In this document: positions 5,108-17,243 of the stretch, piece by piece
How the letters are laid out: every line of letters begins with the position of its first letter
How positions within the stretch are numbered: the stretch's first letter is position 1
Source: an uncultured Bacilli bacterium
Lineage (GTDB): Bacteria > Bacillota_I > Bacilli_A > RFN20 > CAG-826
Direction: 5' to 3'
DNA length: 64,000 bases
NCBI GenBank assembly: GCA_944358895.1
Contig: CALVSB010000003.1
Span: 22,868-86,867 of the forward strand
Translations under genes and position numbers: made by a program
The notes under the pieces: model-generated
Database searches by the model: none
The model's input: only the letters and a program-made list of their open reading frames with translations
What the model was told of the DNA's origin: nothing

Positions 5108-5135
5108 TCAAAAAGCCCCGGCTGTTCCGGAGGCT
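5108..5135 (-). terminator. Intrinsic terminator ending the nuclease gene string
   Basis: Minus strand AGCC-U-CCGG aacag CCGG-GGCU followed by UUUUGAU (plus-strand 5114-5135). Confidence 0.55.
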
Positions 5136-5153
5136 TCTCAAAAGGCTTGGTAT

Positions 5154-6590
5154 TCAGGCGAACACTTCCTCGGCCAGCGTCGGGAAGTCGACATAGGGAT
5201 TCCGGTTCCCCTGCACCCCGAAGACCTTCTCGTTCCGCTCGCGCTCGCGGTCGGAAATCGGGTCTTCCTTGGCCCATTCGAGGAACATGTCGGTCGCCCA
5301 GTCGCTAAGCCCAAGCGGCGATGAATAGTCGAAGAGGGCATACGGCTGCCAGTCCCCAAATCCCATCTGCTGCTCATAGCAAGTAACAAAGTAGAAATGG
5401 ACCCGGGCGATGTCGCCCTTCCATTCGTCTCCCGGCTCGAAAACCGTCTCGGAGGGGCCGCCCGGATAGACGTTCGGTCCGAGCTTCGACCCGTTGGTCG
5501 TCTCGTAGGTCGGATCATCGACCTCGCCATAGGGATTGTCGTTCCGCCTCATGTTCGAGTAAGCATCGGCCGGCATGACCGAGAAGGCATCGGAATACAT
5601 GGGGTGGGCATCGTTGAAATAGGACTTCGGGATCACATGCTCGCGCTGGAGGCCTTGCCCCTCTTCCCCGGCCCCGGCTTTCCAGCCGTCGGCGGGCTTG
5701 TGTTTCTCTTTGTCGCTGTAGATGTCGTAGATGTAGCCATCGGGGTCGACATCAGTCACGGCATAGACGTCCATGAGATTGTTGTAGCTGAGTTGATCAT
5801 GGGACCTGATGGTTTTCCAGAAAGAAGTTTTGAGTTCGCTTCCCTCGAGATAGAGATTCACGTTCTTGTAATATTCCTGGGCTTCTCCGTCCAAGTGGTC
5901 ATATTCGCCGAAAAGCCCATCGGTCGGGCGGGGCAAGGACGAAGATGAAGATTCGCTGGTCGGCTCTTCCACCGAGCTGCCTCCCACAAGAAGGGTGAGA
6001 ACGACCTTGCAAATCATGACACGGCCCTTTACTTCCTGACCCAATGTCAAGGTCGAGGCCGCTAAATCGTCAGGTCCGTCCAAGTCTTCGAAATAGACAC
6101 AATAAGGATCGTCGCTCCCGTCGATGGCTGGCACGTCGGACCACGTGACATTCTTGTATTCGGGGTCGCCGCTCACGTCGGTATAAGCCGAAAAGGAAGC
6201 CGCGACGTCAGCTTCGTAGCGGTAGCAGTAAACACGCGCTTTCGAAATACGAACAGGTTCATAAAAACTAAATGTTATTTTGCCCGGGGTTGTAGAGGTC
6301 CCAAGACGAAGACCGCTGGGACTTTTATCGTAATAAGCCTTATTAGCCGATGCTGACCTGATTTCGATGCCACTATGTTGGATGTTTGCTAGGACCGGAG
6401 TATTGTTCTTAGAAAACTTGGCCGTCCCGAAGACGATATCCGCACACTCGACGGTCGTTAGCTCGGCCCCGTGGAGGCGGGCCGTCTCGGCCGCCTTCGC
6501 TCCCAAGCTAAAAAGCGCCACGGCGACGACCGCCAGGGCGCTGAAGATAAAGAAACGTCTATGCTCGCCTCGAAGGAATTGATCCGCCAT
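5154..6590 (-). CDS. Endonuclease I family (EndA/Bsn-like) extracellular nuclease with N-terminal signal-anchor
   Basis: C-terminal domain: REHVIPKSYF, DAFSVMPADAYSNMRRNDNPYGEV, FEPGDEWKGDIARVHFYFVTCY, QGNRNPYVDFP. N-terminal hydrophobic helix FFIFSALAVVAVALFSLG. Ser-rich linker. GAGGAGG Shine-Dalgarno upstream. Confidence 0.8.
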   Translation of the reverse strand: MADQFLRGEHRRFFIFSALAVVAVALFSLGAKAAETARLHGAELTTVECADIVFGTAKFSKNNTPVLANIQHSGIEIRSASANKAYYDKSPSGLRLGTSTTPGKITFSFYEPVRISKARVYCYRYEADVAASFSAYTDVSGDPEYKNVTWSDVPAIDGSDDPYCVYFEDLDGPDDLAASTLTLGQEVKGRVMICKVVLTLLVGGSSVEEPTSESSSSSLPRPTDGLFGEYDHLDGEAQEYYKNVNLYLEGSELKTSFWKTIRSHDQLSYNNLMDVYAVTDVDPDGYIYDIYSDKEKHKPADGWKAGAGEEGQGLQREHVIPKSYFNDAHPMYSDAFSVMPADAYSNMRRNDNPYGEVDDPTYETTNGSKLGPNVYPGGPSETVFEPGDEWKGDIARVHFYFVTCYEQQMGFGDWQPYALFDYSSPLGLSDWATDMFLEWAKEDPISDRERERNEKVFGVQGNRNPYVDFPTLAEEVFA

Positions 6591-6613
6591 GCAAGCACCT
6601 CCTCTCTACTAGT

Positions 6614-8125
6614 CTAGCCAAAAATAGCTTCAGACAAAGAGGGGAAATCGACGAAGGGGTTGCGGTTCTTCTGATGGGAATAGACGGCGTTGTTGCGCTC
6701 GATTTCCTTTGGGGACACCGGGTCTTCCTCGGCCCAGGAAAGAAGCATCGACTGGGCCCAGCTCGAGAGCCCGAGGGCCGACGAGTAATTGAAGGAGGCG
6801 TACGATCCCCAGCCGCTTTTCATCTCGCTTGCGTAACAAGTGACGAAATAGAAATGGATCCGAGCAAAGTCGCCTTTGTATTCGTCGATCGGCTCGAAGA
6901 CGGTGCCGGAGTAACCGGGATAGGAACACTTCCCGAGCTTGGAACCGTTCCCCGACGTATAGGTGGCCGTTCCGACCTCGCCGAAGGGATAGTTGCTCCG
7001 CCGGTTGTTGACATAGCCGTCGGTCGGGATGACCTGGTGGGCATCCGCCACCATCGGGGAACGCTCGTCGAAGACGCTTTGGGGGATCGTGTGCTCGCGG
7101 TTGACGCAATCCCCTTCCCCGCCGTAATTGCCGCATTTATCGTCGTTGATCCGATGGCGGATGTTGCTATACATGTCCCAGTAGTTGCCCTTCCCGTCGT
7201 CGTCGCTGTCCTCGTAGACATTCCAAAGGCCGTTGTAGCCGACGTTGGTGTGCGAATGGATGATCGAGGTGAATTCGCTCTTAAGGGAAGCCCCGCTCCT
7301 CGAGAGGTCGGCAGAGGCGTAATAGGAACGGACGGAGGAAGGAAGGGCGGCCAGCTCGTCCCCGAGGTCCCCGCTTTCCCCGCCCGCGGGGAAACTCTCG
7401 GAACTCTCTTCCGAAGAAGGAGGGGCCGGCGGCTCGCTCGAAGAGGAGGAATCCCCGCCCGAAGGCGCGCCCTCGAGGTAGTAGCCGATGGCGATTTCGC
7501 AAACGTTGACCCGCTCGCGTCCGTTCTCGTTGTAGAGGGAAAGGGAAGACACTTCCCCTTCGCTTGAGAGGCCATCGAAGGACACGGCATTGCTTCCCTC
7601 ATCCGTTCCGAGGGTCGGAACGCTCGTCCAATCGACCGCGGCCGGGGCGGCATAGACCTCACCGCCGAGCTTTAGCCCGAGGCGGGCGGTATCGTTCCCG
7701 TACTGGTAGCAATAGACGTCGATACTCTCGAGGACATAAGAAGAATCGAAACTAAGAGTCAATTCCCCCGCCTTGCTGCTGCTCCCGAGGCGCAGGGCGT
7801 TGTTCCCGCCTTCTTCCGGGGCATAGGCATTGGTGCCGCTCAGCGAGGCGACGATGCTCTCGCCGCTTTGGAGATACGAATCGGGACCGACGATGGTGCT
7901 CACCGTATTGTCGGACACCGTGCCGAAAGTGATCCGGCAGGTCGCGAGGACCGGTTCGGCCGCTTCGGAAGAGGAGGAACCTGAGCCAGACTCCGAAAGC
8001 GAGCTCCCGGCCGAGCTTTCGAGGACCGGCTCCGAGGAGGAACCGCCGAGCGAGGAGCCAAGGAAGCCGTCGCAGGAAGCGAGAAGCAGGCCGAAAAGGG
8101 CCGTGAGGACCAGTTGTCTTTTCAT
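6614..8125 (-). CDS. Endonuclease I family extracellular nuclease, lipoprotein paralog
   Basis: Lipobox LLLASCDG. REHTIPQSVF, DAHQVIPTDGYVNNRRSNYPFGEV, FEPIDEYKGDFARIHFYFVTCY, QKNRNPFVDFP. The N-terminal domain is homologous to that of 5154..6590. Confidence 0.8.
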   Translation of the reverse strand: MKRQLVLTALFGLLLASCDGFLGSSLGGSSSEPVLESSAGSSLSESGSGSSSSEAAEPVLATCRITFGTVSDNTVSTIVGPDSYLQSGESIVASLSGTNAYAPEEGGNNALRLGSSSKAGELTLSFDSSYVLESIDVYCYQYGNDTARLGLKLGGEVYAAPAAVDWTSVPTLGTDEGSNAVSFDGLSSEGEVSSLSLYNENGRERVNVCEIAIGYYLEGAPSGGDSSSSSEPPAPPSSEESSESFPAGGESGDLGDELAALPSSVRSYYASADLSRSGASLKSEFTSIIHSHTNVGYNGLWNVYEDSDDDGKGNYWDMYSNIRHRINDDKCGNYGGEGDCVNREHTIPQSVFDERSPMVADAHQVIPTDGYVNNRRSNYPFGEVGTATYTSGNGSKLGKCSYPGYSGTVFEPIDEYKGDFARIHFYFVTCYASEMKSGWGSYASFNYSSALGLSSWAQSMLLSWAEEDPVSPKEIERNNAVYSHQKNRNPFVDFPSLSEAIFG

Positions 8126-8184
8126 GAATTAATACCCATTCGTATCGCCAAGTTTACATCCGAAGGCCTGATCAAGGGAAGCCG

Positions 8185-10074
8185 CTAATCCTTCTTGAAG
8201 CCGGGCATCCGCTTTTCCCGCGAGACGCGGTAAGCCTCGCCCGATGGGTCTTGCCAGCTATGGTCGCGAAGGAGGGTCGGGAGGAGGGAGAGGAAGGCTT
8301 CGTCGACGAAGTCGGCGTGGAACGCTTTGTCGTAGGCGACCGGGACCATCGCCGGCAGGAGTTCTTGCTCAAGGTAGAAGAACTCCTTCCTCAGGAGCTG
8401 GTTGGGCGAGCAGACCGAGACGAGGCAGCGGAAGCCGCCGTCGCGGAAAAGGCAGGAGGCGGCATAGCATTCGTCGGCCGAGTTATAGACGCCGGCCTCC
8501 CCCATGTAAAGGGCGTTCGCCCTCTCGCCGTGAAGGCACTTCCGGGGGATTTTCCTTTCCTTGCCGAGGAGATAGGCGATCCCGGCGCTCGAAAGGGAGG
8601 CGCGGTCGGCTTTGCCCTTCCCGTTCGGGCGGAGGTGCTTGCTCCCGGGAACGTAAACGGCGGCCTTTTCCCCGGAATCGACGAGCGACCAGTAGAGTTC
8701 GTACCCCCGGTCGAGGCGGGCCCGGAATTCGCCGCCCGGGGTCCCGTCTTCCCGGAGCGGATGCTGGGCCGCGATCTCGATGAGGGTCCCTTCGTAGCTC
8801 CCTTCTTCGGCGTTCTCCCTACGGTCCTGTTCCTTCCTGGCCTTGGCCCATTTCTCCTCGTAATGGCGGTAAGCCTCCTCGATTGGGAGGGAGGAAGCGT
8901 TCTTTTCGTAGAGGCCCCGCGGGGAGGAAATCACCCGCAAATCGAGGCTATCCCCCGCCTTTTCCGACAGCTCAACGAGGGAAGAGGCGTAAAGAAGAAC
9001 GAGCGATGGCAGGTTTTTCTTCCCTTCGTTTTCCTTCTTTCCCCGGAAGACGAGGGAGGGGGTCCCGTCGGCCGTCCGGGCCGGCGGGAGGGTCAAGGTG
9101 ATCCACCCTTCGAGCAATCCGCCCTCCTTCTCCGCGAGGAAGGCCGTTTGCCGGATCAGGCCGTGGGCCGGATAGGCTTTCACCTTCCCGGCTCCCGGCC
9201 CATCGGCGGCCAGGGCGATTTCGCGGAGGAAGCCGAGAGAGGAGGCGATTTCTCCGTCGAGGCGGACGCGGTTCTGCCTCGCTTCGTCCTCCCCTTTGCC
9301 GAGCGATTCGATGCCGGCTACCCCTTCGAGGTCGCGGCTCGAGGTCGCCCCGAGGACGGCATGGAGGTTCGCTCCCCCTTTCACCGCGGCGGAAAAGAGG
9401 TCGCGGTTCGTCTTGAGGAAGGAGGAACCGGTCGTCGAGACGAAATAGATGTCCTTGGCTCCCTCGAGGGTCGAGCGGAGGGAGGAAAGGGTCGACGGCG
9501 TCCCGTCGTCGAAGCGCTCGATCCCGCTTTTCTCAAGATAAGGGAAAAGGGAAAGGTAGCGTTCCTTGCCCATCCCGAGCGGCGGAAGGAGGGAAAAGGC
9601 CGTCCCCTTGGAAGCGAAGGAAGAAAAGAAGGCATCGGCGGCCGGAGAAGCCTTTCCCTTGAGGTCGAAGGCCGAGAAAAAGCGCTCGGCCGCCCCTTTC
9701 TCCTCGGCATTGACGTAAGTGAGGCCCGGGAAGAGGGGCTCGAGCGGCGTCACGAGGGAAGAGGACGCGGCGATCGGGACGACGAGCTTCTTCCCCTTCG
9801 TCCGGAAATAAGAAGCCAAGGAAGCCTCGTAGAGGCAAAAGGGCTTGCGAAGGTAGTCACTGGTGAGGAAAAGGATGATGCAATCGGCTTCCTCGATGGC
9901 CCTGGCCAAGGAAGAAAGGACCTCGTCGCCCGGCCGGACCCCGACCGCGTAGGCGTTCGAGGAATAGAAAAGGTCCTTTCCCTCGTCGAGGGCGGGGTCG
10001 ATTTCCCTAAGGACCAGGAGGAACGCCCGGAGGAAGGAATCGTCGCTCGAGGCGTGGGAAAGGAAGTATTTCAT
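8185..10074 (-). CDS. Three-module cytosolic protein: N-terminal TIR-like domain, uncharacterised middle region, C-terminal DUF218/YdcF-like domain
   Basis: N-terminus: KYFLSHASSDD ... VRPGDEV ... IEEADCIILFLTSDYLRKPFCLYEASLA (TIR_2-like strand/helix order, Glu in the expected position). C-terminus: IEIAAQHPLREDGTPGGEFRARLDRGYELYW..AAVYVPGS..LSSAGIAYLL..IPRKCLHGE..GVYNSADECY..FRCLVSVCSPNQLLR follows the DUF218 order. ATG overlaps the upstream stop (ATGA at 10071-10074). Confidence 0.55.
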   Translation of the reverse strand: MKYFLSHASSDDSFLRAFLLVLREIDPALDEGKDLFYSSNAYAVGVRPGDEVLSSLARAIEEADCIILFLTSDYLRKPFCLYEASLASYFRTKGKKLVVPIAASSSLVTPLEPLFPGLTYVNAEEKGAAERFFSAFDLKGKASPAADAFFSSFASKGTAFSLLPPLGMGKERYLSLFPYLEKSGIERFDDGTPSTLSSLRSTLEGAKDIYFVSTTGSSFLKTNRDLFSAAVKGGANLHAVLGATSSRDLEGVAGIESLGKGEDEARQNRVRLDGEIASSLGFLREIALAADGPGAGKVKAYPAHGLIRQTAFLAEKEGGLLEGWITLTLPPARTADGTPSLVFRGKKENEGKKNLPSLVLLYASSLVELSEKAGDSLDLRVISSPRGLYEKNASSLPIEEAYRHYEEKWAKARKEQDRRENAEEGSYEGTLIEIAAQHPLREDGTPGGEFRARLDRGYELYWSLVDSGEKAAVYVPGSKHLRPNGKGKADRASLSSAGIAYLLGKERKIPRKCLHGERANALYMGEAGVYNSADECYAASCLFRDGGFRCLVSVCSPNQLLRKEFFYLEQELLPAMVPVAYDKAFHADFVDEAFLSLLPTLLRDHSWQDPSGEAYRVSREKRMPGFKKD

Positions 10075-11360
10075 TGCCTTCCTTCGAATTCGGCCTTGAG
10101 GCGGGAGGTGACTTCCTCGGCCTTGGCCACGATCTCTTCGACCGGGGTGCCGACGTCGAACTGCCCGTCGAGATAAAGGATCTTCCCCTCGACCATCGTC
10201 ATCCGGACGTCGAGCTTGCTCCCGGCGTAGACGAGGTTGTTGGGAATGTCGTTGAGGGGGCGCATATCAGGTTTATCGAGATCGATGAGCACGAGGTCGG
10301 CCCGCTCCCCTTCCTTCACGTAGCGGGCGTCGAGGAGGCCCATCGCGATGGAACCGCCGACCGTCGCGGCATAGAGGGCATCGGTTCCCTTGAAGGCCGA
10401 GGGATCCATCGTCCTTAGTTTCTGGAGGACGGAAGCGAGGCGCATCTCATAGAAGAAGTCGAGGCCGTTGTTGCTGCCCGGGCCGTCGGTCCCGATGGCG
10501 AGGTTGACCCCGGCGTCGAGGACGTCGGTGAGGGGCGCGATGCCGCTGGCGAGCTTGCTATTGGAGCCGGGGCAGGTCACGAGGGAGCAGCCGTGCTTTT
10601 TGTAGATGGCGATGTCGCTCCGCGAGAAGGCGACCCCGTGGAAGCCGCCGCCGCCATAATCGAGAAGGCCGAGCGACTCGGCGTACTCGACCGGGTCGAG
10701 GCCATGGTGGCGGGCCTTGCAGCCCTCGTACTCGCTATAGGTCTCGGAGGTATGGGAATAGATCGGGCACTTCAGCTTGTGACTGGCCTTCGAAAGCTCG
10801 ACGAGGATGTCCTCGGAGCAGGTGTACTCGGCGTGGAAGCCGAGCTGGTAGCTGACCAATGGGTTGCCGTCATTGATCTTGCGGTAGCTTTCGACCATCT
10901 CGGCGACCGACTCCCGCTCCTTCGTCACCGTCCCGAGAAGGACGGCCTTGAAGCCCATTTCCTTGGCGGCTCTCGCCATCTCGAGGGGGTTGTAGTACAT
11001 GTCGAAGCAAGCCGTGATGCCGCTTGTGAGATACTCGAGGATAGCGAGCCGCGAAAGATAGTATTGATCCTCGGGCTTGATGAGGGCCTCGAGGGGGAAG
11101 ATCCGCTTGAAGAGCCAGTCGTGGAGGGGGAGGTCGTCGCTATAGCTCCGGGCGAAGGTCATGGCGCTATGGGTGTGGGCGTTCTTGAAGCCCGGGAGGA
11201 GGAGCCCGCCCCGGCAGTCGACCGTCTTGTCGACGCCCTTGGATGGGAGGTTCTTCCCGATTTTCTTGATGGCCCCGTATTCGACGAGGACGTCGCCTTC
11301 GACGATTGAGAAACCCTTCTCGAGGGAGAGGATCCGCGCGTTCTTGAGTAAAGTCTTCAT
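10071..11360 (-). CDS. mtaD: Amidohydrolase-superfamily deaminase, 5-methylthioadenosine/S-adenosylhomocysteine deaminase-like
   Basis: GFKNAHTHSAMTFARSYSDDLPLHDWLFKRIFPLE, HTSET, AIGTDGPGSNNGLDFFYEM. Start set at the ATG at 11360 (MKTLLKNARIL) behind GGTGG. Confidence 0.7.
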   Translation of the reverse strand: MKTLLKNARILSLEKGFSIVEGDVLVEYGAIKKIGKNLPSKGVDKTVDCRGGLLLPGFKNAHTHSAMTFARSYSDDLPLHDWLFKRIFPLEALIKPEDQYYLSRLAILEYLTSGITACFDMYYNPLEMARAAKEMGFKAVLLGTVTKERESVAEMVESYRKINDGNPLVSYQLGFHAEYTCSEDILVELSKASHKLKCPIYSHTSETYSEYEGCKARHHGLDPVEYAESLGLLDYGGGGFHGVAFSRSDIAIYKKHGCSLVTCPGSNSKLASGIAPLTDVLDAGVNLAIGTDGPGSNNGLDFFYEMRLASVLQKLRTMDPSAFKGTDALYAATVGGSIAMGLLDARYVKEGERADLVLIDLDKPDMRPLNDIPNNLVYAGSKLDVRMTMVEGKILYLDGQFDVGTPVEEIVAKAEEVTSRLKAEFEGRQ

Positions 11361-11400
11361 GAAGTTACCACCTATCAAGGCAAGTTTAGCCGATAGGCGG

Positions 11401-11417
11401 CTTCCCTACTAGGGAAG
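11401..11417. promoter_or_regulatory. Perfect 8-1-8 palindrome upstream of mtaD (candidate operator)
   Basis: CTTCCCTA-C-TAGGGAAG lies 41 nt upstream of the mtaD ATG and just downstream of the ribF terminator. Confidence 0.4.
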
Positions 11418-11464
11418 AGAAGGATGAACGAGAGATATTGTAAAGAAAAGGCCGTTCTTCGACG

Positions 11465-11485
11465 AAAAAAGGCGGTCGCCCCGCC
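11465..11485 (-). terminator. Intrinsic terminator after ribF
   Basis: Minus strand GGCGG-ggcga-CCGCC then UUUUUU, immediately after the ribF stop codon (11487-11489). Confidence 0.7.
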
Positions 11486-11486
11486 T

Positions 11487-12392
11487 CTATTCTTCCTCTT
11501 CCCCGCGGAGGACCGCTTCCTTGTCATGCTCGATCTGCTTTTGGAGTTCCGCGAGGCTACCGAACCTCTTCTCGCCCCGGAGGCGGCGTTCGAAGCTGAC
11601 GTAGAGGGTCTTGCCATAGGCGTCCCCGGAAAAGCCGAGGAGATGGCTTTCGACCTGTGGGGCGGACAGGGCCCCGACCGTCGGGTTGGTCCCGACGTTG
11701 ATGATCGAGCGGTAAGCCATGCCCGAAAGGTAGGAAACCCCTTCGTAAACCCCGTTCAAGGGATAGCAATAAGGGGCGCTCGGGAGGAGGTTCAGGGTCG
11801 GGAAGCCGATCCGGGTGCCGTTATGGAGGCCATGGCGGACGCTTCCCTTCATCTCGTAAGGCCGGCCGAGGAGAGAGGTTGCCGCCCTCACGTCGCCTTC
11901 TTCCATGATGAGGCGGCGAATCCGGGTCGAGGAGACCTTTTCCCCGTCTTTTTGAAGGAGTGGCAGTTCGACCGTCGGGAAGGCTTTCCTTAGAAGGGTC
12001 GGGTTCCCTTCGCAGTTCCTAGCGAAGCGGAAGTCGGTCCCGCAGACGATGAGGGAGGGGTCGATCTTTTCCTTGAGGAAGGAAACGAAGCCTTGGGGAT
12101 CGAGGGCATAGAAGGAAAGATTGGCCCGGAGGACATAGGCCCGCTCGATCCCGTAGCGCGGCAAAATCCTCAGCTTGTCCGCGAGGGAGGTGAGGACCGG
12201 GTGGGGACGCTCGGGGAATAGAAGCGCCTCGGCGCTCGGCTCGAAAAGGAGGATCGAAGGAAGATAATCGCTCTTCCGGGCGGTCAAAAGGAGTTCCTGG
12301 TGGCCGAGGTGAAGGCCGTCGAAATTCCCGAGGCAGAGGGCCACTTTCGTCCCATCGGGCCGGGTTTTGCTATCGATTTCGATGATATCCAT
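11487..12392 (-). CDS. ribF: Bifunctional riboflavin kinase / FAD synthetase
   Basis: ALCLGNFDGLHLGHQ, SSTRIR, GFPTLN, VGTNPT. Start at the ATG at 12392 (MDIIEIDS); the longer ORF prefix is Arg/Ser-rich noise. Confidence 0.85.
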   Translation of the reverse strand: MDIIEIDSKTRPDGTKVALCLGNFDGLHLGHQELLLTARKSDYLPSILLFEPSAEALLFPERPHPVLTSLADKLRILPRYGIERAYVLRANLSFYALDPQGFVSFLKEKIDPSLIVCGTDFRFARNCEGNPTLLRKAFPTVELPLLQKDGEKVSSTRIRRLIMEEGDVRAATSLLGRPYEMKGSVRHGLHNGTRIGFPTLNLLPSAPYCYPLNGVYEGVSYLSGMAYRSIINVGTNPTVGALSAPQVESHLLGFSGDAYGKTLYVSFERRLRGEKRFGSLAELQKQIEHDKEAVLRGEEEE

Positions 12393-12393
12393 C

Positions 12394-13245
12394 TTAAAAG
12401 AGCCCCCTTTCGGACCGGTAGACGTCCCCGTCTTTCTTATAAACGGCCAGGACCGCGCCTTCGTAGGTGATGAAGACTTCCTCCTCATCGCCATAGATGG
12501 AAGGGAGGGCCAAGGGCTTCCCGTCCTTCACCATCTTTGCTTCCTCTTCCTTCGCCTCGTAACGCTTGAATGGTTTGAGATAAGGCGAAGGGTCGAGAAG
12601 GGGCGGGACGTCCCCGAAGCTAACGCGGATGGCCCTATCGACCATCATCTTCCCCATCGATAGCCGCCTTAGTGAGGAGAGGTAGCCAAGAGTCCCGAGT
12701 TTCTTCGCGATGTCTTCCCCGAGGGTCCGGATGTAGGTTCCCTTCGAAACCGAGGCCGTGAAGACGATTTCCCCTTTCTCGCAGGAAACGAGATTGATGG
12801 AACTAACCACGCACTTCCGGGGCTTCAGCTCCACCGCCTCGCCCTTCCGGGCGTAGCTATAGGCGGGGCGGCCGTTGACCTTGAGGGCCGAATAGGCCGG
12901 GGGAAGCTGCTCGATCTCGCCCTGAAAGGAAACAAGGACGGAAGCGACTTCCCGCACATCGAGGAGGGGAACTTCCCTTTCCTCGACGGTCGTCCCGGTG
13001 AGGTCGGCCGTGTCCTTCCTCGCCCCGAGGGTCAATTTGGCGATGTAGCTCTTCGGCTCGTCGAGGAGATAGGGAAGGAACTTGGTAGCCTTCCCGACGG
13101 CGACGACCAGCAACCCCGAGGCGAAGGGGTCGAGGGTCCCGAGGTGCCCGACCCGAAGGCCAGGGTAAGCCTTCGAAAGGATAGCGTCGTAATAACGCGA
13201 GCTCCTTCCCTCTTCCTTGTCGATCAAAACGAGTCCCTGTGCCAT
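12394..13245 (-). CDS. truB: tRNA pseudouridine(55) synthase
   Basis: GLVLIDKEEGRSS, GHLGTLDPFASGLLVVAVGKATK, PPAYSALKVNGRPAY. Start at the ATG at 13245 (MAQGLVLIDK). Confidence 0.85.
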   Translation of the reverse strand: MAQGLVLIDKEEGRSSRYYDAILSKAYPGLRVGHLGTLDPFASGLLVVAVGKATKFLPYLLDEPKSYIAKLTLGARKDTADLTGTTVEEREVPLLDVREVASVLVSFQGEIEQLPPAYSALKVNGRPAYSYARKGEAVELKPRKCVVSSINLVSCEKGEIVFTASVSKGTYIRTLGEDIAKKLGTLGYLSSLRRLSMGKMMVDRAIRVSFGDVPPLLDPSPYLKPFKRYEAKEEEAKMVKDGKPLALPSIYGDEEEVFITYEGAVLAVYKKDGDVYRSERGLF

Positions 13246-13270
13246 TGCTGATGAATTATAGACAAAGCGA

Positions 13271-13304
13271 AAGGAAAAAGGGCAGGGAATGACTTCCCTG
13301 CCCC
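13271..13304 (-). terminator. Intrinsic terminator after the lipoprotein gene, just upstream of truB
   Basis: Minus strand GGGCAGGGAA-guca-UUCCCUGCCC (perfect 10 bp, plus-strand 13280-13303) then UUUUUCCUUU. A TATAAT (plus-strand 13255-13260) follows, 9 nt before the truB ATG. Confidence 0.8.
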
Positions 13305-13318
13305 ATAGGAAACTCTCT

Positions 13319-14170
13319 TCAGCGGAGGGAAGCGAGGTCGAGGCGGATGCGCTGGCCCGAGGGCGCAAACGGCTCGAGGCGGTAGGCGTCCCCGACTTCA
13401 ATCTCGAAGCCCAATTCGGTCGGGACGACGAGCTTGCCTTCGCTCCGGCCGTAGGAGGCTAAGACGAGGGTGCCCGAAGCCGGTTCGCCTTCGCCCTTGA
13501 GCGGCAAGTAAGAAGGATCGAGTTTTAAGCCGAGCATCCAGTCGTAGGAATAGGCCCACGGCTCGCCCGTCAAGACGCTGCTGCCGGAAAGGAGAGGCGC
13601 ATAGTTCCTTCCGAGTTCGCCATCCGCGACATAATCGCTTTGATAGAGTTCCTGCCAATAGTTGACGGCCATGGAACTATAGAGGAGGCAATGCTCGCCG
13701 TCGTAGAGGGTGATGACCTCGAAAGGCAGCTCGTAGGCCGGGGCACCGGAGATTTCGACAGAAGTCCGGCCGGTCGGGCTCAGAACCGTCAAAAGGCATT
13801 CGACCTTCCGCCCGGCAAAGCTCGAAAGGGGCAAAGACTCGTCGTCGGGGAACGTGAAGTAGAAGCAATAGGCCTCGTCGACATAGGCCTCGTCGTAGAC
13901 GTGGGTCGGGGCGCTTTTCACGAGTTGTTCGCCGTATCCGTACCTGCTTAAGGCGAAGACCTCCTCGTAGGAAGAGACCTCGGCCCCCGCTTCCGGGGAC
14001 AGGGACTCCCGCCCCTCGATGAAGCTGGCAACCATTTCGTGGAAGCCGACGGCAAAGCTTTCGACCTTCCCGCCAACCGGGGGAGCGAAAGGGTCGGACG
14101 AGGGCCCGCACGCGGCGAGCGACAGGGCTGCTAGGCCCAAGGCGGCGAGGCTGAGGCGCGTCGTTTTCAT
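13319..14170 (-). CDS. Lipoprotein, unknown function
   Basis: MKTTRLSLAALGLAALSLAACGPSS lipobox. No recognisable domain. Confidence 0.6.
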   Translation of the reverse strand: MKTTRLSLAALGLAALSLAACGPSSDPFAPPVGGKVESFAVGFHEMVASFIEGRESLSPEAGAEVSSYEEVFALSRYGYGEQLVKSAPTHVYDEAYVDEAYCFYFTFPDDESLPLSSFAGRKVECLLTVLSPTGRTSVEISGAPAYELPFEVITLYDGEHCLLYSSMAVNYWQELYQSDYVADGELGRNYAPLLSGSSVLTGEPWAYSYDWMLGLKLDPSYLPLKGEGEPASGTLVLASYGRSEGKLVVPTELGFEIEVGDAYRLEPFAPSGQRIRLDLASLR

Positions 14171-14291
14171 GGAGTTCCTCCTTTTTAGGGGCCGTCACGC
14201 TTATTGATATCTCCTTATATAACAAAAAAATGGCAAATCTCAAGGAAAGGCCGGATGCGGGTTGCTCCCTTCTTTGCTAGAATGCTCCCCG

Positions 14292-15374
14292 ATGCGTACC
14301 ATCCGTAAGATATTGGCCTCCATCAGGAAGGCCGACGAAGCCTTCAACCTCATCGAGAAAGGCGATAAGATCGCCATCGGCTTTTCCGGCGGGAAGGACT
14401 CGATGGCCCTCGTTGCCGCCTTCGAACGCTACAAGCACTTCGCGAAGAAAGACTTCGACTACGTGGCCGTCTACCTCGACCTCGGCTTCCCGGCCGGGCG
14501 CCCGCCTTACCTCGAGGAATTCGCCGCGCGCTACCACGCGAAGCTCGTCATTAAGGACGCCCGCTTCGTCTACGATGCCCTGAAGGCCCACCAGAAGGGC
14601 GAAGGGCACCATCTCCCCTGCTCCCTCTGCTCGAGGATGAAGAAGGCCGCCATCTGCGAGGCCGCCCACGAACTCGGCTGCAACAAGGTCGCCTTCGCCC
14701 ACCACCTCGACGACGCGGTCGAGACCTTCGTCATGAATCTCTTCCACGGGGGCATGGCCCAGACCTTCGCTCCGAAGATGGAACTGACAAGGAACAAGAT
14801 CACCTTCATCCGCCCCCTCGTCTTCGCCCGGGAGAAGGACATCCGCCGCTCGGCCAAGGAAGAAGGCTTCCCAGAGGCCGTCAAGGTCTGCCCGGCCGAC
14901 GGCTTCACCGAACGCCAGAAGGTGAAGGAATTCCTTGCCCACGTTTACGAGGAATTCCCCCAAAGCGAGCATAACCTCGCCCTCGCCCTTCTCGACTTCC
15001 GGCGCCTCGAGCTCTTCTTCAACCAAGGGGAAAGCCTCCCCCACGGCCGCCTCGAGGCCGTCTCGACGAAGGAAAGGGCCCTCCTCTTGCCCCATAAGCC
15101 CCCGAAGGAAAAAGGCGACACCTACCTCGCCTACGACGAAGAGGGCAAGCTCGTTGGGCAAATTAGCCTCATCATGCTCGACGCCCACCGCTACGCCCTC
15201 AAGGGAATCCATCTCCCGAAGGCGATGCGAAAGGAGGCTATCGAGCATTTCGAAGGGGTTTTGCGGATGAAAACCTCGCCGATGACCCTCATGCTCTTCG
15301 GCCTAAGCAAGGAAGAAAAAGAAGCCCTCGGCTACCGAAAAGGGCCGCGCGGCTACTACAAGCGGCTTATCTGA
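14292..15374 (+). CDS. TtcA-family PP-loop tRNA thiolase-like ATPase with ~110-aa C-terminal extension
   Basis: IAIGFSGGKDS PP-loop, PCSLCSRMKK, VAFAHHLDD. Start at the ATG at 14292 (MRTIRKIL). Confidence 0.7.
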   Translation: MRTIRKILASIRKADEAFNLIEKGDKIAIGFSGGKDSMALVAAFERYKHFAKKDFDYVAVYLDLGFPAGRPPYLEEFAARYHAKLVIKDARFVYDALKAHQKGEGHHLPCSLCSRMKKAAICEAAHELGCNKVAFAHHLDDAVETFVMNLFHGGMAQTFAPKMELTRNKITFIRPLVFAREKDIRRSAKEEGFPEAVKVCPADGFTERQKVKEFLAHVYEEFPQSEHNLALALLDFRRLELFFNQGESLPHGRLEAVSTKERALLLPHKPPKEKGDTYLAYDEEGKLVGQISLIMLDAHRYALKGIHLPKAMRKEAIEHFEGVLRMKTSPMTLMLFGLSKEEKEALGYRKGPRGYYKRLI

Positions 15375-15511
15375 ATACGCCAGAGTTCATACTACCAAAC
15401 CAGTAAAAACAAGGTAGGAAAAGCCTCCGTTCTTTGGACTAATACGTAGGCTTTTTTGACGATGCAATAGATCCGAAACGAAGTCAGTTTTAGAAAGAAG
15501 TTTCTCCTAGA

Positions 15512-16894
15512 TTAATCATCAGCATCAACAATTTTCCAATAGCCAGCTTTGTTGGATCCGACTCTGACAATCAAGGACGACTTCCTGAATTTTTTCATTG
15601 CTTTCTGAACAGTCGACAGGGAAACATTGGCAACCTCCGAAATTTCATCTTGGGTCGACCTTGGATTTTCCCGAATCGCAAACAAAATCTTCATCTCGGT
15701 TTTGCTTAGCCGATCAGCAATCTTATCCATCTCATCCTTGAACGAGTGCTTCCAGTTGTAGGGAATCGTAACGACAATGCAGTCTTCGCCAATCTTAAAT
15801 GCCTTCCGGCCGAAATAAGAAACAATAAGCGGATTTCCTTTGCCGGTTCTTTCGCTTAGATGGGTGGCCAGAAAAATAGACGATAGTTCTTCATTGACGG
15901 GAACGCTCCGGCCGTTATAGAAGCCTTCGACCGTTTGGCTCGGGGCCAGGGACGAGAAGGATGTTATTTCGACGCGGTCGTCGAAGAACGTGATCATCGG
16001 GGCCGTCCGCCGGAGCCATGAGTTATGAATGAAGGCATTTTTCACTGCCTCGTTGAAACAATCTTGGTTGAAAAGAGGAACGTCCGTCCGGATGCCGGTA
16101 TGGACGTTCTCCACCGCTTTTGGCATGTTGATGGTGTCGGAGTAATCGATGATGCGGTCAATGACCGAAACAAGGCTTTGATTTCCAAATTCCTTAACCG
16201 AAAACAATTTGCTTGCCTTATCTGATCCCGAAAAGATGGCAACTCGAACGGGGATCTCGCCGTTATCTGCTAGAAAGCAGGCCAGCATGTTGTACTTGCC
16301 GTCCGGGCAAAACAAATGCATGTTCACCTTGAAAGTGGCGTCGTTGAAAAGAAGGCCTTTCCCAAGGTAATAGGTTTTGAGTTGGTTGAACGTGAGATCT
16401 TGGACGGGCGACTCGGTATTCACCATCGTCGGATAGCCCCGGAGCAAAACGTTCCAGAGGAGTCCTTCCCTTTCCGGATATTTCTCGAGGGAAGCGATGC
16501 TCGAGCCAATGCGCGAATACCTTATTTTGTTAAAGGCCGTCGGGACCGTTTTGGCGCTCGGAATAACCAAGGCGACCACACGTTTGCCATTCATGGTAAC
16601 TTCTTGGAAACGAAAGGCAATCGATGGCTTTAGATTTCGGGCCAAGTAGTTCTGAAGCGGTTCGCTTTTATAATGTCCAAACGGGTTTACGGATGTGCCT
16701 ACGACCTCATGCGTTTTATCGTCGATGCCCCAAACGAGGTAGCCGTAATCTTTGCCTACGATGGCCGCCGAGTTCGACAAAGCCGAAATGTAGTGGCCGA
16801 TTCTCTCTTCTTCGAACCAATCGACCTTAAATTCAAACCACTCCTCTTCGTCTGTTCTGCTGAGGAGGTCAGAAATTACATCAACCAAATTCAT
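15512..16894 (-). CDS. AlbA_2 (divergent AAA / Schlafen-type) domain protein with C-terminal winged-helix HTH; putative transcriptional regulator
   Basis: N-terminus: EEEWFEFKVDW..IGHYISALSNSAAIVGKDYGYLVWGIDDKTHEVVGT. C-terminus: LSKTEMKILFAIRENPRSTQDEISEVANVSLSTVQKAMKKF. The gene is AT-richer than its surroundings. Confidence 0.65.
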   Translation of the reverse strand: MNLVDVISDLLSRTDEEEWFEFKVDWFEEERIGHYISALSNSAAIVGKDYGYLVWGIDDKTHEVVGTSVNPFGHYKSEPLQNYLARNLKPSIAFRFQEVTMNGKRVVALVIPSAKTVPTAFNKIRYSRIGSSIASLEKYPEREGLLWNVLLRGYPTMVNTESPVQDLTFNQLKTYYLGKGLLFNDATFKVNMHLFCPDGKYNMLACFLADNGEIPVRVAIFSGSDKASKLFSVKEFGNQSLVSVIDRIIDYSDTINMPKAVENVHTGIRTDVPLFNQDCFNEAVKNAFIHNSWLRRTAPMITFFDDRVEITSFSSLAPSQTVEGFYNGRSVPVNEELSSIFLATHLSERTGKGNPLIVSYFGRKAFKIGEDCIVVTIPYNWKHSFKDEMDKIADRLSKTEMKILFAIRENPRSTQDEISEVANVSLSTVQKAMKKFRKSSLIVRVGSNKAGYWKIVDADD

Positions 16895-16944
16895 ACCATA
16901 CCGCCTACAAACATGATAAGAGAATAGTTATAGGATTGCCAGAA

Positions 16945-16992
16945 AAATTACGGGATAAATTACGGGATAAATTACGGGATAAATTACGGGAT
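16945..16992. repeat. Tandem array 1: four perfect head-to-tail copies of the 12-bp unit AAATTACGGGAT
   Basis: Read directly: units at 16945, 16957, 16969 and 16981. Array starts 51 nt upstream of the AlbA_2/wHTH gene start. Confidence 0.95.
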
Positions 16993-17070
16993 AAACATTC
17001 ATGGAATATTCGATGGATACTGAAGAATTATATATGGATGGTTACCAAGTTTAGAAAATTTAGAGCCGAA

Positions 17071-17118
17071 AAATTACGGGATAAATTACGGGATAAATTA
17101 CGGGATAAATTACGGGAT
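17071..17118. repeat. Tandem array 2: four perfect copies of the same 12-bp unit, same orientation
   Basis: Units at 17071, 17083, 17095 and 17107. Array starts are 126 bp apart, separated by a 78-bp AT-rich spacer. Confidence 0.95.
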
Positions 17119-17200
17119 AAAATTCCCCGCTTGTTTTTGGGATTTTGTCCCTTGCTGCCCCCCTGCTCTCTCAAAGGCAAATTGGACCGTCAAGGCATAG

Positions 17201-17230
17201 AAAAACGGGCCAGGCCTAGGGCCTAGCCCG
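17201..17230 (-). terminator. Intrinsic terminator ending the rimP-to-rbfA operon
   Basis: Minus strand CGGGCUAGGCC-cua-GGCCUGGCCCG (11 bp, one U-G; plus-strand 17206-17230) followed by UUUUU. Confidence 0.8.
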
Positions 17231-17243
17231 TCGAAAGACTGAG

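What the first reader, a model, noticed from the sequence alone, without database searches (positions are those of the whole stretch)
5108..11417. Candidate four-gene unit: MtaD-like deaminase, TIR-DUF218 protein and two surface nucleases, bracketed by terminators
Seen in sequence: the ribF terminator (11465-11485) and a perfect palindrome (11401-11417) precede mtaD. The mtaD stop and the TIR-gene start overlap (ATGA, 10071-10074). The 59-nt gap to the first nuclease gene and the 23-nt gap to the second contain no hairpin-plus-U-run that I can find. The next convincing terminator is at 5114-5135. This predicts co-transcription of an adenosine-type deaminase, a TIR-like protein and two secreted/anchored nucleases. 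Two readings are possible. (a) A nucleic-acid scavenging and nucleoside-salvage module: nucleases outside, TIR-fold enzyme acting as a nucleosidase/transferase plus deaminase inside. This fits a reduced, host-associated organism. (b) An immune-type module in which a TIR signal or NAD-derived nucleotide is made or destroyed by the deaminase. Either would be a new functional context for a TIR fold.
Basis: inference. Interest (0 to 1): 0.6.

Follow-up and report, generated by a model that had tools for sequence, protein, structure and literature searches.

The report
TIR defence-like gene inserted beside mtaD
The four genes are real and tightly packed, but they are not a conserved module: a stand-alone TIR gene, probably a phage-defence "suicide" NAD-destroying enzyme with an undescribed sensor part, was inserted between a housekeeping deaminase gene and a separate array of secreted-nuclease genes in 3 of 78 species of this gut genus.

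Summary
Four minus-strand genes lie between good terminators at 11469-11485 and 5116-5132: an mtaD-like amidohydrolase, a 629-aa TIR protein and two endonuclease-I proteins. The mtaD and TIR genes overlap by ATGA, and no hairpin lies in the 59-nt or 23-nt gaps.

The interpretation as one functional module is not supported.
- The TIR gene occurs in 3 of 78 species of the genus.
- The closest TIR-less relative (mtaD 87% identical) has a terminator and a promoter-like site exactly where the TIR gene sits, followed by three nuclease genes.
- Elsewhere in the genus, mtaD and the nucleases are not adjacent.
- About 70 other loci with TIR-family homologues lack an adjacent deaminase or any nuclease. 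Eighty metagenomic mtaD loci lack both a TIR gene and a nuclease.

The TIR protein belongs to a sparse, horizontally spread family of about 730 clusters, mainly from gut and rumen anaerobes. Each member has an N-terminal TIR domain (invariant catalytic Glu; closest to SpbK and Cat1) or a DUF4062 NADase domain. This is followed by a PLD-like fold without the HKD motif and a divergent DUF218 (Upr/YdcF-like) domain, and no partner gene is conserved.

Best reading: a single-gene NAD-depleting defence protein, coupled to mtaD expression by the accident of insertion.

The parts
11469..11485 (-). Intrinsic terminator of ribF; upstream boundary of the cluster
   Evidence: 6-bp GC stem plus U6, -16.7 kcal/mol, z -3.57.
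11401..11417 (.). Perfect 8-1-8 palindrome CTTCCCTAGTAGGGAAG in the mtaD upstream region; possible operator
   Evidence: Partly conserved in sister species L059. Function untested.
11382..11388 (-). TAAACTT element 21 nt upstream of the mtaD ATG; candidate -10 box
   Evidence: one of only 3 copies in 64 kb. Conserved upstream of mtaD in L059.
10071..11360 (-). mtaD-like amidohydrolase (429 aa from ATG 11360); housekeeping gene in truB-ribF-mtaD synteny
   Evidence: Amidohydro_1 E 3e-54. Best NCBIfam rows are MtaD/DadD/TRZ-ATZ types, all below their equivalog cut-offs. Orthologues of 56-87% identity in 7 of 24 same-genus genomes that lack the TIR gene.
10071..10083 (-). Left insertion junction: the TIR gene's AGGAAGG ribosome-binding site and the ATGA stop/start overlap. 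The last four mtaD codons are rewritten relative to G022.
   Evidence: homology to the TIR-less relative G022 ends at 10084.
9625..10074 (-). TIR domain (aa 1-150) of the 629-aa protein; the catalytic Glu83 codon is at 9826-9828
   Evidence: TIR_2 37.7 bits. F4, S6, D11, Y74, R76 and E83 are invariant in 21 homologues. Best PDB relatives by sequence are SpbK (4.6e-13) and Cat1 (6.5e-9). Foldseek: AbTir TM 0.74.
8800..9582 (-). Middle domain (aa 165-425): PLD-superfamily / TrmB-effector-like fold without an HKD motif; probably ligand-binding
   Evidence: model pLDDT 90.9; TrmBL2 5bpd, TrmB 2f5t and NgoAVII R 4rct at E 5e-4 to 7e-4, prob 1.0; no invariant His or Lys in this domain.
8188..8799 (-). 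C-terminal divergent DUF218 (Upr/YdcF-like) domain (aa 426-629) with invariant H438, PGSxH, YN[ST][AC]DEC, CSPNQxxRK, H586 and E592
   Evidence: PF02698 is sub-threshold in homologues. hhalign to SanA and ElyC gives E 3-4e-4. The domain also exists as stand-alone proteins of about 225 aa.
8126..8184 (-). 59-nt spacer between the TIR gene and nuc1: no hairpin; contains TAAACTT (8150-8156) 24 nt upstream of the nuc1 ATG, a candidate internal promoter
   Evidence: The block GGATGTAAACTT...CGAATGG is conserved in L059 and L076.
6614..8125 (-). Endonuclease-I family lipoprotein (503 aa; signal MKRQLVLTALFGLLLASC)
   Evidence: Homologues in 37 of 41 related genomes, at varying locations.
6591..6613 (-). 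23-nt spacer with a GAGGAGG ribosome-binding site; no hairpin
5154..6590 (-). Second endonuclease-I paralogue (478 aa; N-terminal hydrophobic anchor or signal)
   Evidence: 42% identical to nuc1. The array has 3 copies in G022.
5116..5132 (-). Intrinsic terminator after the second nuclease gene; downstream boundary
   Evidence: -19.2 kcal/mol, z -1.75, followed by CTTTTT.

Best explanation
The cluster is a composite of three unrelated units, not a dedicated four-gene system.

(1) mtaD is a housekeeping amidohydrolase of the MTA / 5'-deoxyadenosine deaminase group. It ends the conserved truB-ribF-mtaD stretch and has its own promoter region.

(2) The two endonuclease-I genes are a lineage-variable tandem array of secreted or anchored nucleases. 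This fits nucleic-acid scavenging by a small-genome gut bacterium. The array probably has its own promoter.

(3) A single accessory gene was inserted between them in the common ancestor of three species of the genus. The insert brought its own ribosome-binding site, rewrote the last four mtaD codons and replaced the mtaD terminator and the nuclease promoter region. The TIR gene is now translationally coupled to mtaD, and transcription can read through into the nuclease genes (inferred).

The inserted protein has an N-terminal TIR NADase-type domain, a PLD-like fold without the HKD motif, and a divergent DUF218 (Upr/YdcF-like) domain. It most likely works as a one-protein abortive-infection sensor-effector. 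In this model the C-terminal two-domain module senses a phage-derived or infection-induced ligand, possibly a sugar-diphosphate or nucleotide-type molecule. Sensing then drives TIR assembly and NAD+ breakdown through Glu83. The domain identities, the insertion and the phyletic pattern are shown here. The NADase activity, the trigger and the defence phenotype are inferred.
For: Insertion:
- The TIR gene is present in 1 of 61 related genomes and in 3 of 78 species of the genus.
- The closest TIR-less relative G022 has mtaD, then the terminator GCCGCC-TTTA-GGCGGC-TTTTCTTC (z -2.3), then TTGAAA-17-TATAAG, then three nuclease genes.
- Nucleotide homology stops at window 10084, just before the TIR ribosome-binding site.
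- The sister species keep the same order and the 4-nt overlap.
- dN/dS is 0.23 with dS like the flanking genes, and GC3 is 0.81. The insertion is therefore old, vertically kept and under purifying selection.

No module:
- mtaD and the nucleases are unlinked in G004, G008, G010 and G020.
- No nuclease, and no adjacent mtaD, lies next to TIR-family genes outside the sister species among about 70 loci. The only mtaD nearby is 2.8 kb away on the opposite strand in L067.
- Neither a TIR gene nor a nuclease lies near mtaD in 80 metagenome loci.
- No partner gene is conserved across 74 loci.
- TAAACTT lies upstream of both mtaD and nuc1.

Defence-type protein:
- The catalytic Glu is invariant.
- The nearest solved relatives are the anti-phage NADases SpbK and Cat1. 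PADLOC gives only an spbK hit.
- The N-terminal domain is swapped for DUF4062 in a sister clade. DUF4062 is reported as a TIR-like NADase of single-gene anti-phage systems (bioRxiv 10.64898/2026.05.01.722283, 10.64898/2026.06.25.731849, 10.64898/2026.09.04.749371).
- The family is sparse, and a Bacteroidota clade is nested inside Bacillota in the tree.
- Some loci lie beside TIR-TPR proteins, a STAND NTPase, a transposase or a Csn2 gene.
Against: - There is no RNA evidence.
- Neighbourhoods of family members are mostly housekeeping genes, and defence-gene hits are few. The usual 'defence island' argument is therefore weak.
- There are no phage hits and only one plasmid hit.
- The C-terminal module also occurs without any NADase domain, with a wHTH domain, or as a stand-alone protein of about 225 aa. 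It has many invariant polar residues, so it may be an enzyme with its own, possibly non-immune, role.
- The direction of the event (gain, or loss in G022) is inferred from parsimony and from the intact terminator and promoter in G022. It is not proven.
- E. coli YdcF, a DUF218 protein, binds S-adenosyl-methionine (cited in 10.64898/2026.10.14.759067), and mtaD acts on SAM by-products. A metabolic link therefore cannot be excluded by sequence alone.
Confidence: 0.62

Rival explanations
1. Reader's reading (a). The four genes are a nucleic-acid scavenging and nucleoside-salvage operon. Outside nucleases release nucleotides, and inside the cell the TIR-fold domain acts as a nucleosidase or N-glycosyl hydrolase whose products are handled by the deaminase.
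For: Same strand, ATGA coupling and no terminators between the genes. The genome is small (1.46 Mb). mtaD and nuc1 share a TAAACTTG upstream element, so those two may be co-regulated. mtaD and the nucleases are also adjacent in G022. TIR folds are related to nucleoside 2-deoxyribosyltransferases (established knowledge).
Against: The TIR gene is missing from 75 of 78 species of the genus, which still have mtaD and/or nucleases. TIR-family genes elsewhere lie beside no nuclease, and only one (L067) has an mtaD homologue within 3 kb, on the opposite strand. The TIR domain is closest to immune NADases, not to salvage enzymes. In G022, mtaD has a terminator and the nucleases have their own promoter-like site.
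Confidence: 0.08
2. Reader's reading (b). The genes form a multi-gene immune module in which the TIR product (an NAD-derived signal) is made or destroyed by the deaminase, with the nucleases as effectors. This would be analogous to Thoeris or to deaminase-containing systems such as RADAR.
For: The TIR domain is of the immune type with its catalytic Glu. It is translationally coupled to a purine-type deaminase. Deaminases and nucleases are known defence effectors (established knowledge).
Against: mtaD is orthologous (56-87% identity) to genes in the same truB-ribF context in genomes without the TIR gene. It gives no PADLOC hit. The nucleases carry export signals, so they act outside the cell. 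They are present in 37 of 41 related genomes regardless of the TIR gene. No partner gene is conserved for the TIR family in 74 loci.
Confidence: 0.05
3. The TIR / PLD-like / DUF218-like protein is not an immune protein. It would be an accessory metabolic or regulatory enzyme, for example one acting on NAD-, nucleotide-sugar- or SAM-derived molecules, with the DUF218-like domain as the catalytic core and TIR or DUF4062 as a regulatory or second catalytic domain.
For: The C-terminal module is the constant part of the family and carries most of the invariant polar residues. R562 and E592 align with catalytic Arg and Glu of Upr-like hydrolases (10.64898/2026.10.14.759067). The module exists without any NADase domain and as stand-alone small proteins. 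Flanking genes are mostly housekeeping. Several Firmicute copies, including the Streptococcus ones, lie downstream of dnaG-rpoD.
Against: The distribution within the genus is extremely patchy. The catalytic His of Upr enzymes is replaced by an invariant Gln. TIR and DUF4062 swap at the N-terminus, and both are experimentally tied to NAD+ depletion in phage defence.
Confidence: 0.2

Closest known systems
SpbK (Bacillus subtilis ICEBs1 abortive-infection TIR NADase; PDB 9phb)
   Same: One-gene system. It is the best sequence match of the TIR domain in the PDB (E 4.6e-13) and the only PADLOC hit. It shares the FISHSxxD ... YxxSxxCLxE motif with the catalytic Glu, and the folds match (Foldseek TM 0.64).
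   Different: In SpbK the TIR domain is C-terminal and the sensor is an unrelated N-terminal domain that recognises a phage protein. Here the TIR domain is N-terminal and is followed by a PLD-like fold and a DUF218-like domain. No trigger is known.
Evangelion / Swarozyc / NIR systems (DUF4062 TIR-like NADase fused to variable auxiliary regions; bioRxiv 10.64898/2026.06.25.731849, 10.64898/2026.05.01.722283, 10.64898/2026.09.04.749371)
   Same: Single-gene logic: an N-terminal NADase core plus a C-terminal auxiliary or sensor region. A sister clade of this family carries DUF4062 in place of TIR_2 on the same C-terminal module. These systems are also not obligatorily in defence islands.
   Different: The auxiliary regions described there are short or different. 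None of the three papers mentions DUF218, YdcF or a PLD-like sensor. The window's protein has a classical TIR_2 domain, not DUF4062.
Thoeris (ThsB TIR signal producer plus ThsA-type effector)
   Same: Bacterial TIR domain with a catalytic Glu that acts on NAD+.
   Different: Thoeris needs a separate effector gene beside the TIR gene. No conserved neighbour exists here, and the TIR domain is fused to its own large C-terminal module.
DUF218 / Upr-like proteins (E. coli ElyC, SanA, YgjQ; cytoplasmic YdcF; bioRxiv 10.64898/2026.10.14.759067)
   Same: Weak but consistent profile matches over the core (hhalign E 3-4e-4) and sub-threshold PF02698 hits in homologues. R562 and E592 align with catalytic Arg and Glu. 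A Ser/Thr lies in the YN[ST] motif. The protein is cytoplasmic like YdcF.
   Different: Pfam does not detect the domain in the window's protein. There is no match to YdcF itself and no DUF218 structure among the top Foldseek hits. The catalytic His is an invariant Gln. There is no membrane anchor and no envelope-glycan gene context.
TrmB / TrmBL2 effector (sugar-binding) domain and other HKD-less PLD-superfamily folds
   Same: The middle domain's predicted fold matches TrmBL2 5bpd, TrmB 2f5t and the NgoAVII R-protein PLD domain (E 5e-4 to 7e-4, prob 1.0).
   Different: TM scores are low (0.28-0.38 of target). There is no sequence similarity and no HKD motif, and ligand binding is only inferred.
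MtaD / DadD amidohydrolases and periplasmic Endonuclease I (EndA / Vvn family)
   Same: Clear family-level matches for the flanking genes.
   Different: mtaD scores below every NCBIfam equivalog cut-off, so its substrate is uncertain. The nucleases carry extra N-terminal regions of about 250 aa that match no family.

Membership tests
Four-gene operon / functional gene module | Same strand, short or overlapping junctions, no internal terminator | tested here: met
   ATGA overlap; the 59-nt and 23-nt gaps have no significant hairpin; terminators only at 11469-11485 and 5116-5132.
Four-gene operon / functional gene module | No internal promoter; a single mRNA | not testable with these tools
A conserved TAAACTT element upstream of nuc1, identical to the one upstream of mtaD, argues for an internal promoter.
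Four-gene operon / functional gene module | Gene order conserved across related and unrelated genomes | tested here: not met
   The order is found only in 3 of 78 species of the genus. G022 has mtaD, a terminator and the nucleases without the TIR gene. mtaD and the nucleases are unlinked in G004, G008, G010 and G020. About 70 TIR-family loci outside the sister species hold no nuclease, and one (L067) holds an mtaD homologue, 2.8 kb away on the opposite strand; none of 80 mtaD loci holds a TIR gene or a nuclease.
TIR domain (Pfam PF13676 TIR_2) | Profile match above the curated cut-off | tested here: met
   37.7 bits against 28, residues 4-126.
TIR domain (Pfam PF13676 TIR_2) | Flavodoxin-like TIR fold | tested here: met
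   AbTir 7uxu TM 0.74, MyD88 0.72, SpbK 0.64 (target-normalised), prob 1.0.
Catalytic (NADase-type) TIR | Conserved catalytic glutamate in the xCxxE motif | tested here: met
   E83 (FCLYE) is invariant in 21 homologues. It aligns with CLNE of SpbK and CWDE of Cat1.
Catalytic (NADase-type) TIR | NAD+ cleavage activity | not testable with these tools
   Needs an enzyme assay.
Thoeris-type TIR signalling system | Adjacent effector gene that senses the TIR product | tested here: not met
   Clustering of 824 flanking ORFs from 74 loci found no conserved neighbour. PADLOC and Pfam scans of 123 neighbours were heterogeneous.
Single-gene abortive-infection NADase (SpbK / Evangelion-like) | Stand-alone gene, sporadic and horizontally spread | tested here: met
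Single-gene abortive-infection NADase (SpbK / Evangelion-like) | Enrichment next to known defence genes or on mobile elements | tested here: inconclusive
   A few loci lie beside TIR-TPR, STAND, transposase, Csn2 or mad2 genes, but most neighbours are housekeeping. There are 0 phage hits, 1 plasmid hit and 1 viral-contig hit.
Single-gene abortive-infection NADase (SpbK / Evangelion-like) | Protection against phage with NAD+ depletion | not testable with these tools
   Needs an experiment.
DUF218 / Upr-like (PF02698) | Profile match above the curated cut-off (27.6 bits) | tested here: not met
   No hit in the window's protein even at E 10. Homologues reach 18.9-24.8 bits. The precomputed hits are 'weak' or 'faint'.
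DUF218 / Upr-like (PF02698) | Homology to characterised members by profile comparison or fold | tested here: inconclusive
   hhalign gives SanA E 3.4e-4 (prob 38%), ElyC E 4.3e-4 (prob 34%) and no match to YdcF. No DUF218 structure is among the top 50 Foldseek hits.
DUF218 / Upr-like (PF02698) | Thr-His-Arg-Glu catalytic cluster (10.64898/2026.10.14.759067) | tested here: not met
   In the hhalign alignments the Arg aligns with R562 (ElyC) and the Glu with E592 (SanA). The His position is an invariant Gln559. The Thr position is ambiguous (N531 or S/T532).
PLD superfamily | PLD-like fold | tested here: met
   TrmB/TrmBL2 effector domain and NgoAVII R PLD domain (prob 1.0, E < 1e-3); PPK1, Tdp1 and F13 are weaker.
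PLD superfamily | HxK(x)4D catalytic motif | tested here: not met
   No invariant His or Lys in residues 165-425.
MtaD (MTA/SAH deaminase) equivalog | NCBIfam equivalog score above the cut-off | tested here: not met
   best rows score 310.9 bits against cut-offs of 609-617. The bifunctional MTA/SAH deaminase row scores 190.6 against 779. Only the family-level assignment (Amidohydro_1) is safe.
Defence-associated deaminase (e.g. RADAR RdrB-like partner) | The deaminase co-varies with the defence partner | tested here: not met
   mtaD orthologues are present without the TIR gene in 7 of 24 same-genus genomes, and in the truB-ribF-mtaD order in two of the four inspected (G009, G020). No PADLOC hit.
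Endonuclease I (PF04231) | Profile match above the cut-off and an export signal | tested here: met
   249.6 and 202.8 bits against 25. Lipobox LLASC in nuc1 and a hydrophobic N-terminus in nuc2 (read from the sequence).

The most novel reading that the evidence does not exclude
The inserted gene would be the founding example of an undescribed single-gene anti-phage family of about 730 50%-identity clusters. In it an NADase head (TIR_2 or DUF4062) is controlled by a two-domain sensor: an HKD-less PLD-like fold plus a divergent Upr/YdcF-type domain. The characterised relatives of that last domain cleave sugar-diphosphate bonds or bind SAM. The trigger could then be an infection-induced change in a nucleotide-sugar, cell-wall-precursor or SAM-derived metabolite rather than a phage protein. 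In this lineage the system was also wired into the translation of a SAM-by-product deaminase, which might tune its expression or its ligand pool.
Probability: 0.35. Interest if true: 0.65.

Novelty: new variant of a known kind. Interest (0 to 1): 0.35.

Why it matters
For the finding as posed, the result is a caution. Tight packing, overlapping stop and start codons and missing terminators can arise from a single-gene insertion into a housekeeping region. They do not by themselves define a functional module. Comparison with one TIR-less relative was enough to show this.

The part worth keeping is the inserted protein. It adds a new sensor architecture to the growing class of one-protein NAD-depleting defence systems. 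It shows TIR_2 and the recently characterised DUF4062 NADase domain as interchangeable heads on the same module. It also places a cytoplasmic, divergent DUF218 domain in a likely immune context, shortly after the DUF218 family was first given a biochemical activity. Homologues exist in cultured Ruminococcus albus 7 (plasmid pRUMAL01, WP_013483453.1) and in oral streptococci, so the idea is testable.

Tried and rejected
- Pfam on the C-terminal 479 and 210 residues at E 10 gave nothing. NCBIfam gave nothing for the TIR protein.
- Profile search of the PDB with the C-terminal module found no DUF218 structure. hhalign against E. coli YdcF gave no real match. A MAFFT alignment of the four E. coli DUF218 paralogues was too poor to use as a profile.
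- Foldseek with the whole model was dominated by TIR-APAZ (SPARTA) chains at rmsd above 20 A. I treat these as TIR-driven matches, not as evidence for an APAZ-like domain.
- Literature searches for 'DUF218' with 'TIR' returned only papers on DUF2188, an artefact of word-start matching. 'YdcF' with 'TIR domain' returned nothing.
- Looked for a conserved partner gene. None was found. A protein of about 700 aa, with a faint RyR-domain match in one member, lies within 122 nt of the gene in 4 loci (3.3 kb away in a fifth), and TIR-TPR proteins lie nearby in 5. Both are too rare to define a system.
- The defence-island argument was tested and found weak.
- The metagenome scan with mtaD returned no close relatives (best 67% identity). 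It served only as a negative control for linkage.
- The hairpin after the TIR stop codon in sister species L059 and L076 is not significant and lacks a U run, so it was not counted as a terminator.
- Rejected the idea that the TIR gene is a recent or decaying insertion: GC3 matches the neighbours and dN/dS is 0.23.

Full report
**Observation**

Four minus-strand genes fill 5154-11360.
- An Amidohydro_1 protein of the MtaD/DadD/TRZ-ATZ group lies at 10071-11360. Its real start is ATG 11360, behind AGGTGG.
- A 629-aa protein with an N-terminal TIR_2 domain lies at 8185-10074.
- Two Endonuclease_1 proteins lie at 6614-8125 (lipoprotein signal ...LLASC) and 5154-6590.

The mtaD stop and the TIR start overlap as ATGA. 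The ribF terminator (11485-11469) is strong (z -3.6). The terminator after the second nuclease gene (5132-5116) is adequate (z -1.75). The 59-nt spacer has no significant structure (z +1.6). The 23-nt spacer holds only a GAGGAGG ribosome-binding site. The 8-1-8 palindrome at 11401-11417 is exact.

One label needs softening. Pfam does not detect DUF218 in this protein, even at E 10.

**Is it a conserved unit? No.**

The window lies in a 1.46-Mb, 38-contig genome. Public records title its closest relatives uncultured Firmicutes.
- The TIR gene was found in none of 60 other genomes of the same genus and order.
- It is present in 3 of 78 species of the genus: the window's species, G082 (= L059/L047, 78% identical) and G084 (= L076, 84% over the part on the contig).
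- Those two sister species, and a 96%-identical strain (L144), keep truB-ribF-mtaD-TIR-nuclease-nuclease with the same 4-nt overlap.

The closest TIR-less relative is G022 (mtaD 87% identical). There, mtaD is followed by a clear terminator (GCCGCC-TTTA-GGCGGC-TTTTCTTC, z -2.3). Next come a TTGAAA-17-TATAAG promoter-like site and then three nuclease genes. Nucleotide homology between the window and G022 ends at 10084. This is immediately upstream of the TIR gene's AGGAAGG ribosome-binding site, so the last four mtaD codons were rewritten. Homology resumes only inside the first nuclease gene.

In other species of the genus, mtaD orthologues (56-69% identical) are present and nucleases are also present. 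They sit on other contigs or 30-230 kb away. Of four inspected mtaD loci, two (G009, G020) keep the truB-ribF-mtaD order.

Outside the genus:
- About 70 loci outside the sister species that encode relatives of the TIR protein hold no endonuclease-I gene. Only one (L067) has an mtaD homologue within reach, 2.8 kb away on the opposite strand.
- 80 metagenomic loci with mtaD homologues hold neither a TIR-family gene nor a nuclease.

**How old and how real is the insertion?**

GC3 of the TIR gene (0.81) matches its neighbours (0.76-0.86). Between the window and L059, the TIR gene has dN/dS 0.23 and dS 0.68. The flanking genes give 0.13-0.28 and 0.49-0.80. The gene was therefore acquired before these species split, has been inherited vertically, and is under purifying selection.

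In one near-identical assembly (L143, 91-97% nucleotide identity) the TIR reading frame breaks at about residue 210. It continues into a DegV-like fragment and then pyrH-frr-uppS. This is either a rearrangement or a chimeric scaffold.

**Transcription**

No RNA data could be consulted. From sequence alone, read-through from the mtaD promoter across all four genes is plausible, because the insertion removed the mtaD terminator.

There is also evidence for an internal promoter. The heptamer TAAACTT occurs only three times in the 64-kb window. Two of those copies lie 21 nt upstream of the mtaD ATG and 24 nt upstream of the nuc1 ATG. Both copies, with flanking bases, are conserved in the sister species within otherwise diverged spacers. 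I read this as a probable -10 element. On that reading the nuclease array keeps, or regained, its own promoter, and mtaD and the nucleases may share regulation. This is inference.

**What the inserted protein is**

*Family.* A word-indexed search found 21 full-length relatives. A genome scan found 130. An exhaustive profile search with the C-terminal module found 728 clusters at E <= 1e-3 and 222 at E <= 1e-30.

*TIR domain.* Alignment of 21 full-length members shows an invariant F4, S6, D11, Y74, R76 and E83 (FCLYE). The best solved relatives by sequence are SpbK (4.6e-13) and the CRISPR-associated Cat1 (6.5e-9), both anti-phage NADases. PADLOC gives only an spbK hit. AlphaFold2 models reached pLDDT 82.9 for the full length and 90.9 for residues 165-629. 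With Foldseek they confirm the TIR fold.

*Middle domain.* Foldseek assigns residues 165-425 to the PLD superfamily, with TrmB/TrmBL2 effector domains and the NgoAVII R-protein as best hits. The domain has no invariant His or Lys, so there is no HKD site.

*Last domain.* It gives sub-threshold PF02698 hits in homologues. It also gives weak hhalign matches to E. coli SanA and ElyC (E 3-4e-4) but none to YdcF. A 2026 preprint shows that DUF218 (Upr-like) enzymes hydrolyse the sugar-diphosphate bond of undecaprenyl-linked glycans with a Thr-His-Arg-Glu cluster, and that cytoplasmic YdcF binds SAM (10.64898/2026.10.14.759067). In the hhalign alignments R562 and E592 match the Arg and Glu, the His is an invariant Gln559, and the Thr position is N531 or S/T532. 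The genome has no canonical DUF218 gene.

**Architecture variation and context**

On the same C-terminal module, the N-terminal domain takes several forms:
- TIR_2, in the large clade that includes the window;
- DUF4062, in a sister clade, mostly Lachnospiraceae and Oscillospiraceae;
- a wHTH domain;
- nothing at all.

The last domain also exists as stand-alone proteins of about 225 aa. Three 2026 preprints show DUF4062 to be a TIR-like NADase that acts in single-gene and multi-gene anti-phage systems. None of them mentions a DUF218 or PLD-like partner.

A tree of the module places the window's protein, on a long branch, next to Acutalibacteraceae/Clostridia sequences. A Bacteroidota clade and a Spirochaetota sequence are nested among Bacillota, which indicates horizontal spread within gut and rumen communities.

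Clustering of 824 flanking ORFs from 74 loci found no conserved partner. Some loci lie beside TIR-TPR proteins, a STAND NTPase, a transposase, Csn2 or other PADLOC families. Most neighbours are ordinary housekeeping genes. There is no phage copy, one plasmid copy (R. albus 7 pRUMAL01, annotated hypothetical) and one viral-contig fragment.

**Interpretation**

The best-supported reading is that the cluster is a composite.
- mtaD is a housekeeping deaminase.
- The nucleases are a lineage-variable array of exported enzymes: two copies here, three in G022.
- Between them sits an old single-gene insertion of a TIR / PLD-like / DUF218-like protein.

By its catalytic TIR domain, its interchange with DUF4062, its solo status and its patchy, horizontally spread distribution, this protein is most likely a one-protein NAD-depleting abortive-infection system with a previously undescribed sensor module.

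The main rival reading is that the constant C-terminal module is itself an enzyme with a non-immune role. This is kept at about 0.2, because the module occurs without an NADase head and the defence-island signal is weak.

I list it as agreement, not as evidence.

**Verdict**

The functional-module interpretation is not supported. The interesting content is the inserted protein's architecture, which is a new variant of a known kind of system.

Noticed in passing
L143 (ena:ERZ16268067:scaffold_2143) against window 9445-19672: A 91-97% identical assembly carries the TIR reading frame only to about residue 210 (window 9445). It then continues into a DegV-like fragment followed by pyrH-frr-uppS, with no nucleases. 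The same contig also lacks window 15372-17095, the AT-rich AlbA_2/wHTH insertion between rbfA and truB. This is either real strain-level rearrangement or a chimeric scaffold.
   Followed up: partly
window 8150-8156, 11382-11388, 17047-17053 (minus strand): TAAACTT occurs only three times in 64 kb. Two copies lie 24 and 21 nt upstream of the nuc1 and mtaD start codons, both followed by G(G/C)C, and both are conserved in the sister species. The third lies between the iteron-like arrays of the AT-rich insertion. This is a candidate -10 box or shared regulatory site.
   Followed up: partly
L042 (G022:C25) 8971-9209, upstream of mtaD: In the TIR-less relative, the region upstream of mtaD holds three direct copies of GGAAACAAATCACGTCATAA instead of ribF and its terminator. 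The contig ends there. This could be iteron-like repeats or the end of a mobile element.
   Followed up: no
L079:841-3006, L084:5525-7807, L092:1295-3175, L106:9369-11273: A protein of 626-760 aa with no family match, apart from a faint RyR-domain hit in one member, lies within 0-122 nt of the TIR/DUF4062 / DUF218-like gene in four distant loci (3.3 kb away in a fifth, L058). It may be a partner in a sub-family.
   Followed up: partly
L129-L138 (Streptococcus infantis, S. oralis, S. taonis and others), about 7250-8840 in each locus: Oral streptococci encode a 511-528-aa variant with a different N-terminus, part of the middle domain and the DUF218-like domain. It lies downstream of dnaG-rpoD. 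Two Clostridia TIR-type copies (L049, L061) also lie downstream of dnaG-rpoD.
   Followed up: no
L067:12594-13850 (minus) against the TIR gene at L067:8001-9782: In one Erysipelotrichaceae MAG, an mtaD homologue (48% identity) lies 2.8 kb from the TIR-family gene on the opposite strand. It is the only such case among about 70 loci, so it is probably chance.
   Followed up: partly
window 5154-8125 against G022:C25:3094-7493: The copy number of the endonuclease-I array varies between close relatives: two here and in L076, one plus a split second copy in L059, and three in G022. A third, more distant Endonuclease_1 homologue lies outside the window at G000:C3:105444-106163.
   Followed up: partly
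L059:6860-6923 and L076:456-520: In the two sister species, the spacer after the TIR stop codon holds an inverted repeat GGGGGAGC...GCTCCC followed by TTTGG that is absent from the window. It is not significant by shuffling (z -0.3 to -0.6).
   Followed up: yes
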